DNA from: a virus
Direction: 5' to 3' (one strand)
Length of the DNA: 64,000 nt
Virus record (IMG/VR): IMGVR_UViG_3300009149_000011
Coordinates: 1 to 64,000 of that record
Positions 4,530 to 64,000 of this stretch are shown here, one piece after another; positions within the stretch are counted from its first letter, which is position 1, and every line of letters begins with the position of its first letter. Under the pieces are notes generated by a model that did no database searches, was not told the origin of the DNA, and worked only from the letters and a program-made list of their open reading frames with translations. Made by a program: the position numbers and the translations under genes.

Positions 4530-4799
4530 TTAATAACAACGATTATAATTTAACCAATTATACCAATAGTGATACCCGCTTCTCCAGACATAAACCCATC
4601 TGTTACCATTCCATACATAAACATAGTGACCACCGTATTCAGAGTGCCAATAGGCTCTCTGACAAAAGCATCCATTACACCTATCTGAAATACTATATTG
4701 TTGACTGTAATAACTGCCTGATGAGAATCCGCTCTGAGCTTTAGTTTCGATGCTCATAATTCCTATGAGCAACAAACAAGTTAATATAAATTTTTTCAC
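4530..4799 (-). CDS. secreted Trp/Tyr-rich small protein
   Basis: Signal peptide ending KAQ; aromatic-rich C-terminus. Confidence 0.6.
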   Translation of the reverse strand: MKKFILTCLLLIGIMSIETKAQSGFSSGSYYSQQYSISDRCNGCFCQRAYWHSEYGGHYVYVWNGNRWVYVWRSGYHYWYNWLNYNRCY

Positions 4800-4836
4800 T
4801 ATATTAACTTAAACATTTAACTAATAAAAGACAAAT

Positions 4837-5373
4837 TTATCTTTCCATAAACACCTCTTCTCTTTCAATGTTTTCAATAGACTCAATGTTTGATCTTTTC
4901 ATCTTTCTAACCAGTATATTTGATTCATTCCTACAATGCCCAACTCTATAGTCTCCAGCCGTAACTCTAAAAGTTATTTCACCATCTCCATTAACAATAA
5001 ACCCGCCATCATTGAATGGCACATCTATATCTGGGCCTCCTACAAGACCATCATAATAAATGTTCTCTAATTCTATTTCATCTTTTTCCTCTGCGCCTTT
5101 AAGTATTTGATCATACTCTTCATTAGAAAGTTCTCTAGCCCCTCTCCATCTAGAGCAAACGTTCTTACTAATGTTTTTATCGTATCTATCGAATAATACC
5201 CAATGATATGTTACGGACCACACTAAGCTGTCATCATCCTTTTCAAAAACCTTACCGCTTCTAACTTCAAAGTCATTCTCTTCAATCTTCTTTCTTAGAT
5301 CTGCGGCTCTGGTCTCTAAATCAAGTCGATCAACCCTTAATTGATCTAATTCTTTTTGTAATTGGTCTTTCAT
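4837..5373 (-). CDS. hypothetical protein
   Basis: 178-aa ORF, N-terminal coiled coil. Confidence 0.65.
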   Translation of the reverse strand: MKDQLQKELDQLRVDRLDLETRAADLRKKIEENDFEVRSGKVFEKDDDSLVWSVTYHWVLFDRYDKNISKNVCSRWRGARELSNEEYDQILKGAEEKDEIELENIYYDGLVGGPDIDVPFNDGGFIVNGDGEITFRVTAGDYRVGHCRNESNILVRKMKRSNIESIENIEREEVFMER

Positions 5374-37808: not shown

Positions 37809-37871
37809 ATCGGTAACATTTAAATTAGTGGGGCATCCGATAAATCGAACACCATTAACCTATATAGGTTG

Positions 37872-38025
37872 TGGGATAGGTAGGATTCGAACCTCAACCT
37901 TACTTTTGGATATCACTAGTAATACTAAGAATCTGCGCAGACTTCCTTTCTCACAAAGATTGTTTTACACAGTCGTAAAACGCCTTGCTCGCCGCAAGGT
38001 GGGCTCACCAGCGCCCAGCTACCCC
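37872..38025 (-). ncRNA. oversized (154-nt) tRNA-like RNA with multiple hairpins in place of the anticodon arm
   Basis: GGGGTAG/CTATCCC-A acceptor, GGGC/GCCC D-arm, TTCGAAT T-loop; 3-4 internal hairpins. Confidence 0.65.
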
Positions 38026-38039
38026 ATGTAGCTTTATTG

Positions 38040-38673: not shown

Positions 38674-38762
38674 TATTTTTATTATAAATAATCAAATAAA
38701 AGTATACCACACATCTTTTGAATATGATTGTCCAAAAGTTGTAAGGTGTACCTAGTTTTATG

Positions 38763-38858
38763 TCAGGAGTGGGGGATTCGAACACCCGAACCACACTAAC
38801 TGTGCGCAGTTATCCGTGTCCAAAACGGATGCCTTAAACCTTACTCGATCAATTCCTG
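38763..38858 (-). tRNA. tRNA-Pro(TGG) with long variable arm
   Basis: TCCGT TT TGG AC ACGGA; extra arm AACTGCGCACAGTT; mismatched T-stem. Confidence 0.6.
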
Positions 38859-56424: not shown

Positions 56425-56511
56425 TTGCGGTGGGTAGGATTCGAACCTACGTTCTCTTTCGAGTTAGAGCTTATGAGACTCCGCTGGTACCAGACTCCAG
56501 TCGACCCCGCG
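56425..56511 (-). tRNA. tRNA-Met(CAT) with C1:A72 mismatch and long variable arm
   Basis: CT CAT AA loop; extra arm CTC-GAAA-GAG. Confidence 0.72.
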
Positions 56512-56543
56512 ATATACCTTCAAGATTGATATTCATCTAATTG

Positions 56544-56629
56544 TAGCGGGAGAAGGACTCGAACCTCCGCAAGCGCCTACGCGTCTCTGGGTTATGAGCC
56601 CAGCGTGTTACCAATTACACCACCCCGCA
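56544..56629 (-). tRNA. initiator-type tRNA-fMet(CAT) with long variable arm
   Basis: CTGGG CT CAT AA CCCAG (three G-C pairs), 1:72 mismatch; extra arm GCG-TAGG-CGC. Confidence 0.8.
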
Positions 56630-63342: not shown

Positions 63343-63481
63343 TAGCGTAGAGAGGAGTCGAACCTCTACTTAATCATTATAAACATTAGAACCGCCGCAA
63401 GCAGGAGTTGCCCCAAATTTCACGCGCCATGAAACTCTTCTAATGCCTATTACTTTGGGTATACCCAATTGTAACTACGCT
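63343..63481 (-). ncRNA. oversized (139-nt) tRNA-like RNA with branched anticodon domain
   Basis: AGCGTAG/CTACGCT-A, AGAGG-TTCGACT-CCTCT, 12-bp stem TAGGCATTAGAA/TTCTAATGTTTA capped by three hairpins. Confidence 0.65.
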
Positions 63482-63573
63482 GGCCAAATAGTGAAAGCGG
63501 TTTCTCAATACCTCTGATTTAACCCTTGCAATGGGGTACCCTTTCATGCTATACCAGTAAACACGTACTATTG

Positions 63574-63649
63574 CGCCCAAGGAAGGATTCGAACCTCCAA
63601 ACATAAACTTTGCGGAATTTATGACATCATACCGTTTGATGTCTTGGGC
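63574..63649 (-). tRNA. atypical tRNA, extended anticodon arm with loop TCCGCAAA
   Basis: CATAAAT TCCGCAAA GTTTATG. Confidence 0.6.
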
Positions 63650-63655
63650 AACTTG

Positions 63656-63733
63656 AGCTCCTGGAAGGGATCGAACCTCCGAACTTTCTAAACCTTGCGG
63701 GGTTTAGCGCTTATACCAACCAGCCACAGGAGC
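63656..63733 (-). tRNA. atypical tRNA, extended anticodon arm with loop CCGCAA
   Basis: CTAAACC CCGCAA GGTTTAG; U73. Confidence 0.6.
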
Positions 63734-63739
63734 ATTTTG

Positions 63740-63812
63740 AGCGAAGGGGTAGAATCGAACTACCGTACTATAGGTTTGCGGACCTATCGCCTAACCACTC
63801 GGCAACCTTCGC
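63740..63812 (-). tRNA. Cys-like tRNA with 8-nt anticodon loop TCCGCAAA
   Basis: ATAGG TCCGCAAA CCTAT; U73. Confidence 0.68.
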
Positions 63813-64000
63813 TTATAGGGTTCTTATTTATAGAACCCTAGCTTTTCTGCTTTAAAAGCTACTCTCGCAGCTTCAGTTTTCGCAAGAAGATCTTTATACT
63901 CTTTTCTCAAAGAATCAATCTTTTGCTCTTTTTTAGATTTCTCAACATAGATCTTATCCATATCTTGAACTCTTGTCTTTAGGAAGTGAAGAAGTATGTT

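What the first reader, a model, noticed from the sequence alone, without database searches (positions are those of the whole stretch)
63343..63812. Three tRNAs with CCGCAA in enlarged anticodon loops beside a giant tRNA-like RNA showing the complement TTGCGG
Seen: three different tRNA bodies share CCGCAA in non-7-nt loops (63610-63615, 63695-63700, 63776-63781). The oversized tRNA-like RNA downstream has TTGCGG in an apical hairpin (63395-63400), and so does the one at 37992-37997. Conservation of the loop across divergent bodies argues against decay. Inference, three options: (a) loop-loop pairing that assembles tRNA-like RNAs, (b) 8-nt-loop quadruplet or +1 frameshift tRNAs related to Cys(GCA), (c) shared bait for an anticodon nuclease.
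Basis: partly seen in the sequence, partly recalled or inferred. Interest (0 to 1): 0.7.

Follow-up and report, generated by a model that had tools for sequence, protein, structure and literature searches.

The report
Three odd-looped cysteine-type phage tRNAs
A giant gut phage related to the Lak megaphages carries three neighbouring cysteine-type tRNA genes whose anticodon loops are all rebuilt in the same abnormal way, while the proposed pairing with a nearby large tRNA-like RNA is not supported.

Summary
On the minus strand, three adjacent cloverleaf tRNA genes (63740-63812, 63656-63733, 63573-63649) all carry CCGCAA in a non-7-nt anticodon loop. It is a 6-nt loop on a 6-8 bp stem, or an 8-nt loop if the closing pair opens. 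An independent assembly gives the same sequence. All but one of the other ARAGORN-called tRNAs on the 149-kb contig have normal 7-nt loops.

The first tRNA descends from the tRNA-Cys(GCA) of Lak-type megaphages, whose loop is CUGCAAA. No other tRNA-Cys lies on the contig. Many phage arrays have a tRNA-Cys with the 7-nt loop CCGCAAA, so C at position 33 recurs. Only the loop size is special here.

The complement TTGCGG is present in both large tRNA-like RNAs, but it lies mostly inside predicted stems. The hexamer is generally enriched, and no relatives exist to test co-variation.

Four-base decoding finds no support on this contig: in-frame UGC-G is not avoided, and no gene needs a +1 shift at UGCG, UUGC or GCGG.

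My best reading (about 40%) is a cysteine-type isoacceptor family with a remodelled 3+GCA+2 loop that still reads UGY, as the 8-nt-loop yeast mitochondrial tRNA-Thr1 reads triplets. Non-decoding decoys are the main rival. This scan has reported four-base-codon phage tRNAs on other DNA; this trio does not fit that pattern.

The parts
63740..63812 (-). tRNA A: cysteine-type tRNA with discriminator U73. Anticodon arm AUAGG-U-CCGCAA-A-CCUAU, read as an 8-nt loop, or as a 6-nt loop on a 6-bp stem.
   Evidence: ARAGORN tRNA-?(cgca). Rfam tRNA 49.6 bits. Cloverleaf minimum-free-energy fold. Best match is the tRNA-Cys(GCA) of LR756501 (score 27 against 15 for the next tRNA type), followed by other phage tRNA-Cys.
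63656..63733 (-). tRNA B: U73, anticodon arm CUAAAC-C-CCGCAA-G-GUUUAG, 7-bp stem with a 6-nt loop, longer variable region.
   Evidence: ARAGORN tRNA-?(cgca). Rfam tRNA 37.7 bits. Fold. No clear orthologue.
63573..63649 (-). tRNA C: least canonical of the three. G73, one base between acceptor and D stem, 8-bp anticodon stem, 6-nt loop CCGCAA, 3-nt variable region. Its T arm is nearly identical to that of B.
   Evidence: Cloverleaf fold, z -3.05. Only 17.4 bits, to the tRNA-Sec model. Not called by ARAGORN. B/C alignment.
63776..63781 (-). CCGCAA loop of tRNA A.
   Evidence: unpaired probability at least 0.99
63695..63700 (-). CCGCAA loop of tRNA B.
   Evidence: unpaired probability at least 0.97
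63610..63615 (-). CCGCAA loop of tRNA C.
   Evidence: unpaired probability at least 0.99
63343..63486 (-). 144-nt tRNA-like RNA ('giant 1'): acceptor stem and T arm enclose a long arm ending in a three-hairpin junction. It contains CUUGCGGCG. Membership in one system with the trio is not shown.
   Evidence: Fold -44.7 kcal/mol, z -2.4. No Rfam or ARAGORN call. Of UUGCGG, only UGC is unpaired. No homologue in LR756501.
63487..63572 (-). 86-nt spacer between tRNA C and giant 1. No recognised feature.
63816..63840 (.). 9-bp hairpin directly upstream of tRNA A that overlaps the stop codon of the preceding 144-aa ORF. No T run follows it on the minus strand, so the trio is probably co-transcribed with that ORF.
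37870..38027 (-). Second oversized tRNA-like RNA ('giant 2') with the same 9-mer CUUGCGGCG. UUGC lies in a 6-bp stem at the anticodon-arm position.

Best explanation
The three genes are a phage-specific family of cysteine-type tRNAs with anticodon GCA.

At least tRNA A descends from the ordinary tRNA-Cys of Lak-type megaphages. All three carry the phage-type C32-C33 loop prefix plus a one-base change in loop size. In standard numbering the loop is Y32-C-C-[G-C-A]-A-R38: three bases before the anticodon and two after.

They are transcribed with the upstream ORF and cut out like other tRNAs. A and B, which keep U73 and GCA, are probably charged by the host CysRS. They most likely still read UGU/UGC as triplets, as the 8-nt-loop yeast mitochondrial tRNA-Thr1 (loop UUUUAGGU) reads CUN.

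The remodelled loop would make them poor substrates for host enzymes that act on the anticodon stem-loop, such as anticodon nucleases.

Shown here: the genes, their folds, the descent of A, the absence of another tRNA-Cys on the contig, and the lack of any four-base signal. Inferred, not tested: charging, triplet decoding and nuclease evasion.
For: A's nearest relatives are all tRNA-Cys(GCA). The closest is LR756501 tRNA-Cys, with a near-identical D arm and the canonical loop CUGCAAA.

The phage is Lak-related: a 510-aa protein is 38-42% identical to Lak-A/B/C and LR756501.

The 149-kb contig has no other tRNA-Cys, although its ORFs hold 374 Cys codons. LR756501 keeps its single tRNA-Cys in an Asp/Asn/Tyr/Ile cluster. 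The Asp/Asn/Tyr cluster in this window has none.

A and B keep U73 and GCA. These are the main CysRS identity elements (from my own knowledge; sequence).

Duplicated isoacceptors in this phage (Gln, Asn, Pro, Met) regularly have different stems and near-identical loops. 'Same loop, different bodies' is therefore what an isoacceptor family looks like here.

In my count over the first viral-scan loci, 22 tRNA-Cys genes carry a C33 7-nt loop (19 CCGCAAA, 2 CCGCAAC, 1 CCGCAAG). In two arrays of about 30 tRNAs it is the only tRNA-Cys. C33 is therefore compatible with a working tRNA.

In-frame UGC-G makes up 42 of 143 UGC codons (29%), equal to the background of 26%. This fits triplet reading and argues against efficient four-base reading.

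Precedent: the 8-nt loop UUUUAGGU with anticodon UAG decodes triplets (PMC3113583, read).

The sequence is reproduced in an independent assembly.
Against: The flanking bases are Watson-Crick complementary in all three. The predicted state is therefore a 6-nt hairpin loop on an over-long stem, which is not a known decoding geometry.

tRNA C has G73, lacks U8, has an 8-bp anticodon stem and scores poorly as a tRNA.

In laboratory genetics, 8-nt loops usually cause +1 frameshifting (PMC5009743, PMC4238358; abstracts only).

The complete genome may be about 494 kb. A normal tRNA-Cys could lie in the unsampled part.

Related megaphages carry tRNA look-alikes with 4-6-nt loops that plainly cannot decode.
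Confidence: 0.4

Rival explanations
1. The three RNAs are non-decoding tRNA mimics. They display a cysteine-type anticodon stem-loop to soak up or block a protein that reads it, such as a host anticodon nuclease specific for tRNA-Cys, CysRS or a loop-modifying enzyme. The tRNA body serves only for processing and stability.
For: The 32:38 positions are complementary in all three, which gives a stable 6-nt hairpin on a 6-8 bp stem. C is a poor tRNA. All six loop bases are invariant while every stem differs. LR756501 has tandem tRNA look-alikes whose anticodon arms end in 4-6-nt loops. Phage tRNAs that counter tRNA-cleaving defences are documented (PMC10264068, PMC11555353, PMC11464382; titles and abstracts).
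Against: No nuclease or partner protein is identified. The neighbouring ORFs have no family hits. A and B keep U73, which a pure decoy would not need. No other tRNA-Cys is on the contig.
Confidence: 0.25
2. They are +1 frameshift or four-base-codon tRNAs. The anticodon would be CGCA reading UGCG, or CCGC reading GCGG, or GCAA reading UUGC. They would serve one or more programmed sites, as reported elsewhere in this scan for phage tRNAs that gate Pth2-like genes.
For: ARAGORN reads an 8-nt loop with a 4-base anticodon. The trio lies 1.4 kb from a Pth2 gene (PF01981, 28.1 bits). In other phages of this scan, that gene is reported to be gated by enlarged-loop tRNAs (AI notes, unchecked). About 345 kb of the probable genome is unsampled.
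Against: The Pth2 gene here is gated by an in-frame TAG at codon 5 with a tRNA(CUA) downstream, not by a four-base codon. In-frame UGC-G is not depleted (42 of 143) and occurs inside Pth2 and a neighbouring ORF. There is no ORF pair or minigene start that needs a +1 step at TGCG or TTGC; the single GCGG hit looks like an ordinary overlap between neighbouring genes. Sites with the rare CGG codon continue in frame. The extra base lies 5' of GCA, as in the triplet-reading tRNA-Thr1.
Confidence: 0.12
3. The CCGCAA loops pair with UUGCGG in the oversized tRNA-like RNAs to assemble an RNA-RNA complex.
For: Both oversized RNAs contain the exact complement, inside a shared 9-mer CUUGCGGCG. With tRNA B the complementarity reaches 7 nt. 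Giant 1 lies next to the trio.
Against: Only 3 of 6 (giant 1) and 2 of 6 (giant 2) complement bases are unpaired in the ensemble, and the rest are in stems. The hexamer is 3-fold enriched genome-wide and also occurs in two other tRNAs. A third oversized tRNA-like RNA lacks it. No homologues exist to test co-variation.
Confidence: 0.04
4. They are decaying tRNA pseudogenes with no function.
For: The loops are non-canonical. C is degenerate as a tRNA. No homologues of the trio were found in IMG/VR, JGI metagenomes or Lak genomes.
Against: All three have intact cloverleaves with compensatory changes in every stem and canonical T loops. The identical abnormal loop in three diverged genes is the opposite of random decay. 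All but one of the phage's other ARAGORN-called tRNAs are canonical.
Confidence: 0.05

Closest known systems
Phage and bacterial tRNA-Cys(GCA), including the tRNA-Cys of Lak-type megaphage LR756501 and the phage variant with the 7-nt loop CCGCAAA
   Same: tRNA A shares the D arm (GCCGAGUGG..UAGGC), the anticodon-stem context, GCA, A37 and U73. The CC-GCA-A motif is identical to the C33 phage variant.
   Different: The loop is 6 or 8 nt instead of 7. No such tRNA was found in IMG/VR, JGI metagenomes or four Lak-type genomes. B and C have unrelated bodies, and C has G73.
Yeast mitochondrial tRNA-Thr1 (8-nt anticodon loop UUUUAGGU, anticodon UAG; PMC3113583, PMC4267643, PMC4756836)
   Same: It is a natural tRNA with an 8-membered loop built as three bases, anticodon, two bases, and it reads triplets in frame. 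It arose by remodelling an existing tRNA.
   Different: That tRNA reassigns CUN to Thr and is charged through loop recognition by a dedicated ThrRS. Here no reassignment is seen, position 33 is C, and 32:38 can form a Watson-Crick pair. Decoding is untested.
+1 frameshift-suppressor and engineered quadruplet tRNAs (SufJ, SufB2/SufA6, sufD; PMC4238358, PMC5009743, PMC9094753)
   Same: An anticodon loop with one extra base.
   Different: Those tRNAs act at defined four-base sites. No such site was found on this contig, and UGC-G is not avoided in frame.
Phage tRNAs that escape or neutralise tRNA-cleaving defences (PMC10264068, PMC11555353, PMC11464382)
   Same: Phage-encoded tRNAs whose anticodon stem-loop differs from the host's; the proposed or shown role is to resist anticodon nucleases.
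   Different: The described cases keep a 7-nt loop and a known target isoacceptor such as Lys or Tyr. No nuclease acting on tRNA-Cys is known for this host, and nothing was tested here.

Membership tests
Canonical elongator tRNA (Rfam RF00005) | Cloverleaf with acceptor, D, anticodon and T arms, scoring above the Rfam gathering threshold of 29 bits | tested here: met
   A scores 49.6 bits and B 37.7 bits, and both fold as cloverleaves. C is not met: no RF00005 hit, only 17.4 bits to the tRNA-Sec model.
Canonical elongator tRNA (Rfam RF00005) | 7-nt anticodon loop with U33 and a purine at position 37 | tested here: not met
   The loop is 6 or 8 nt in all three, and the base before GCA is C. Of the other 28 ARAGORN-called tRNAs on the contig, 27 meet this feature; the exception is the 'Phe' tRNA at 78569-78647.
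tRNA-Cys(GCA) | Descent from, or sequence similarity to, tRNA-Cys | tested here: met
   Met for A only: its top matches are all tRNA-Cys, and the LR756501 tRNA-Cys scores 27 against 15 for the next tRNA type. B and C have no clear orthologue.
tRNA-Cys(GCA) | CysRS identity elements: G34-C35-A36 and discriminator U73 (from my own knowledge of E. coli CysRS) | tested here: inconclusive
   GCA is present in all three. U73 is present in A and B, and C has G73. Whether GCA is presented as the anticodon in a 6- or 8-nt loop is unknown.
tRNA-Cys(GCA) | Aminoacylation with cysteine | not testable with these tools
   Needs an in vitro charging assay or acid-gel Northern blots.
+1 frameshift / quadruplet-decoding tRNA | 8-nt (or larger) anticodon loop | tested here: inconclusive
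   ARAGORN reads 8 nt. The minimum-free-energy folds close the 32:38 pair to give 6 nt.
+1 frameshift / quadruplet-decoding tRNA | Cognate four-base sites at which a +1 step is needed to make a protein | tested here: not met
   No candidates were found at TGCG or TTGC on the 149-kb contig, and the one GCGG hit looks like an ordinary gene overlap. In-frame TGC-G is 29%, against a 26% background. The rest of the probable 494-kb genome was not available.
Kissing-loop RNA pair | Complementary sequences both displayed in accessible loops | tested here: not met
   CCGCAA is fully unpaired. UUGCGG has only 3 of 6 (giant 1) and 2 of 6 (giant 2) bases unpaired.
Kissing-loop RNA pair | Compensatory change between the two partners in homologues | not testable with these tools
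   No homologues of the trio or the giant RNAs were found.
Nuclease-evading or decoy phage tRNA | A host nuclease that cleaves the host counterpart but not, or is titrated by, the phage RNA | not testable with these tools
   No candidate nuclease is known. Needs cleavage assays.

The most novel reading that the evidence does not exclude
The trio is a natural, virus-encoded family of tRNAs with 8-membered anticodon loops that works on the ribosome. Either it reads UGY in frame with a non-U base at the turn position, which would be the first such case outside yeast mitochondria. Or it shifts the frame at UGC-G at programmed sites in the unsampled two-thirds of this megaphage genome.
Probability: 0.15. 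Interest if true: 0.8.

Novelty: new variant of a known kind. Interest (0 to 1): 0.45.

Why it matters
U33 and the 7-nt loop are among the most conserved features of tRNA. Three diverged genes that keep exactly the same abnormal loop show selection for a non-standard anticodon arm in a phage that heavily rewires translation: it also carries amber suppressors, a Pth2 gene, a tmRNA and a release-factor gene.

If these tRNAs decode, they extend the known limits of loop geometry. If they are decoys, they point to an unknown host activity against tRNA-Cys in Prevotella-type gut bacteria.

The side observation may matter more broadly. Many phage tRNA arrays use C32-C33 loops, and in many gut-type arrays only the tRNA-Cys does. 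I found no account of it: one paper checked does not mention position 33, and one literature search turned up nothing.

Tried and rejected
**Homologue searches that found no relative of the trio**
- blastn of the region against GenBank phages.
- Neighbouring 302-aa protein and the 510-aa protein against IMG/VR.
- Exact anticodon-arm pattern of tRNA B in IMG/VR.
- A-type 6-nt-loop pattern in IMG/VR: 18 hits, none a tRNA.
- T-arm plus acceptor pattern of B and C in JGI metagenomes: 103 hits, all ordinary tRNAs.
- CCGCAA plus T-loop pattern in four Lak-type genomes: only one hit, in a tRNA-Leu variable arm.
- Contigs encoding homologues of the 302-aa protein: no trio beside them.

**Giant RNAs**
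- blastn against 400 kb of LR756501 and against the phage's own genome gave only T-loop matches.
- Rfam at E up to 10 found nothing for them.

**Readings considered and rejected**
- GNRA tetraloop (GCAA): the registers do not close.
- UGA-to-Cys recoding: no ORFs are split by TGA, and TGA ends 13 of 141 ORFs.
- CGG four-base reading through UCCG: all rare in-frame CGG sites continue in frame.
- The 'ATG-TGCG' site at 90374 lies inside a normal gene for a membrane protein with an EEVAFR motif.

**Other dead ends**
- The automatic alignment of the trio misplaces the anticodon arm, so its consensus structure for that arm is not usable.
- The eLife 2023 paper on phage tRNA loops mentions neither position 33 nor Cys.

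Full report
**What is there**

All genes in the window lie on the minus strand. Downstream of a 144-aa ORF (genome 63824-64258) come three tRNA-shaped genes:
- A: 63740-63812
- B: 63656-63733
- C: 63573-63649

An 86-nt spacer follows, then a 144-nt tRNA-like RNA (63343-63486), then a 302-aa ORF.

Each of the three folds as a cloverleaf. CCGCAA forms a fully unpaired 6-nt loop, closed by U-A, C-G and U-A on stems of 6, 7 and 8 bp. In standard tRNA numbering the closing pair is 32:38. The same structure can therefore be read as an 8-nt loop, which is how ARAGORN reads A and B (anticodon 'cgca').

Rfam's tRNA model gives A 49.6 bits and B 37.7 bits. C is irregular: it has one base instead of two after the acceptor stem, a G73 discriminator and a 3-nt variable region, and it gets only 17.4 bits, against the tRNA-Sec model.

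The acceptor and T stems keep their pairing through changes on both sides. B and C share a nearly identical T arm, so they may be old paralogues. A Logan contig from another assembly matches over 6.9 kb apart from one base outside the trio, so the loops are not an assembly slip.

**How unusual it is within this phage**

The window is the first 64 kb of a 149-kb contig. ARAGORN finds 30 tRNAs on the contig. Apart from the trio, 27 of the other 28 have Y32-U33-NNN-R37-N38 loops. The one exception is a 'Phe' tRNA at 78569-78647 with the loop GCGAAAC.

Duplicated isoacceptors (Gln, Asn, Pro, Met) have different stems but near-identical loops. It is what an isoacceptor family looks like in this phage. 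The real oddity is the shared abnormal loop size together with C at position 33.

**What the trio derives from**

The phage is a distant relative of the Prevotella Lak megaphages. A 510-aa protein is 38-42% identical to Lak-A/B/C and to the 735-kb LR756501. The 302-aa neighbour of the trio is also recorded on a 494-kb contig, which suggests that the contig is a fragment.

The best is the LR756501 tRNA-Cys, with a near-identical D arm and the ordinary loop CUGCAAA. A is therefore a remodelled tRNA-Cys. B and C have no clear orthologue.

The contig has no other tRNA-Cys, although its ORFs hold 374 Cys codons.

**The CC-GCA-A motif elsewhere**

I scanned IMG/VR for CCGCAA at anticodon distance from a T loop.
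- The tally over the first 116 loci found 22 tRNA-Cys genes with a C33 7-nt loop: 19 CCGCAAA, 2 CCGCAAC and 1 CCGCAAG.
- In two arrays of about 30 tRNAs this is the only tRNA-Cys, so C33 is compatible with a working tRNA.
- The same loop occurs in some bacterial genomes, including three tandem copies in a Myroides genome.
- In an unbiased sample, all 26 tRNA-Cys had U33, and C33 occurred in 10 of 893 tRNAs.
- None of the phage or bacterial hits had the 6- or 8-nt form.

**Test of option (a), loop-loop pairing**

UUGCGG is present in both oversized RNAs, inside a shared 9-mer CUUGCGGCG. Four points weaken the idea:
- In the folding ensembles only UGC (giant 1) or GG (giant 2) is unpaired. In giant 2, UUGC lies in a 6-bp stem at the anticodon-arm position.
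- The hexamer is three times more frequent than expected in the window (31 against 10.7). It also occurs in two tRNA-Met genes.
- The third oversized tRNA-like RNA lacks it.
- I found no homologues of either partner, so the co-variation test cannot be run.

**Test of option (b), four-base reading**

- In-frame TGC followed by G makes up 42 of 143 TGC codons (29%), against 26% for all C-ending codons.
- Such sites lie inside the neighbouring Pth2 gene and another ORF.
- No ORF pair or minigene start needs a +1 step at TGCG or TTGC. The one GCGG hit looks like an ordinary overlap between neighbouring genes.
- The rare CGG codon (9 in frame) is followed by long in-frame ORFs.

Earlier notes of this scan describe phage tRNAs with enlarged loops that gate Pth2-like genes through four-base codons. 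Here the Pth2 gene (PF01981, 28.1 bits) is interrupted by TAG at codon 5, and a tRNA(CUA) lies downstream. A relative (L264) has the same TAG-plus-tRNA(CUA) arrangement without the trio. Lak-A/B/C have a tRNA(UUA) near their Pth2. The trio is therefore not part of that conserved module.

**Best reading and its main rival**

The loop has three bases before GCA and two after. The 8-nt loop of yeast mitochondrial tRNA-Thr1 (UUUUAGGU, anticodon UAG) has the same layout, and it reads triplets in frame (PMC3113583).

I combine this with A's descent, the U73 in A and B, the missing ordinary tRNA-Cys and the lack of any four-base signal. On that basis I rate a cysteine-type isoacceptor family that still reads UGY as the most likely explanation (0.40). 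The remodelled loop would be selected against host enzymes that act on the anticodon arm. That last step is inference.

The main rival (0.25) is that the RNAs do not decode and act as decoys. Three things favour it:
- 32:38 is complementary in all three.
- C has poor tRNA character.
- LR756501 has its own tandem tRNA look-alikes with 4-6-nt loops.

The other rivals are four-base decoding in the unsampled part of the genome (0.12), decay (0.05) and loop-loop pairing (0.04).

**Limits**

No expression or read-level data could be obtained, and no relatives carrying the trio were found. Only 149 kb of a probable 494-kb genome was available.

Noticed in passing
L003, L017, L050, L053, L097 (IMG/VR tRNA arrays); also L008, L016, L019, L066, L085 and others: Some phage tRNA arrays carry C32-C33 loops (CC-NNN-AA) in 4-8 different isoacceptors. 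Many gut-type arrays have C33 only in tRNA-Cys. In an unbiased metagenome sample, C33 occurred in 10 of 893 tRNAs and in 0 of 26 tRNA-Cys.
   Followed up: partly
LR756501.1 228902-229090 and 204243-204333 (within L399-L400): The 735-kb Lak-type phage has two tandem tRNA look-alikes with one shared acceptor stem, whose anticodon arms end in 4-6-nt loops (AUUAUU and AUUACU). A third has a UUCG hairpin. There is also a 91-nt tRNA with an 8-nt loop (ttac).
   Followed up: partly
genome 78569-78647 (outside the window): A 79-nt 'tRNA-Phe(GAA)' has the loop GCGAAAC, with C33 and a possible G32:C38 pair. It is the only other abnormal anticodon loop among the tRNAs that ARAGORN calls on the contig.
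   Followed up: no
genome 64832-65227 and 64291-64364 (L263); L264; L386-L388: The Pth2 gene starts ATG AAA AAG CAT TAG and continues in frame, with a tRNA(CUA) downstream. A relative (L264) has ATG ACT TAG plus a tRNA(CUA). Lak-A/B/C have a tRNA(UUA) about 0.7 kb from their Pth2.
   Followed up: partly
window 56426-56510, 56543-56629, 38762-38858: Two tRNA-Met(CAT) genes of 85 and 87 nt and a 97-nt tRNA-Pro(TGG) carry paired long variable arms, which is unusual for these isoacceptors.
   Followed up: no
L293 (Myroides sp. NP-2, NZ_JACHTD010000004.1) 4540-4896: Three tandem cysteine-type tRNAs with the 7-nt loop CCGCAAG in a Bacteroidota genome.
   Followed up: no
window 63393-63401 and 37990-37998 (minus strand): The two oversized tRNA-like RNAs share the 9-mer CUUGCGGCG but no other detectable similarity.
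   Followed up: partly
whole window: CCGCAA/TTGCGG occurs 31 times against 10.7 expected from shuffles. Most copies lie in coding sequence.
   Followed up: partly
genome 63824-64258 and L264 988-1458: A conserved ORF of unknown function (144 and 156 aa, shared LHFL motif region) sits next to the amber-suppressor tRNA in both phages. It has no Pfam or PHROG hit.
   Followed up: no
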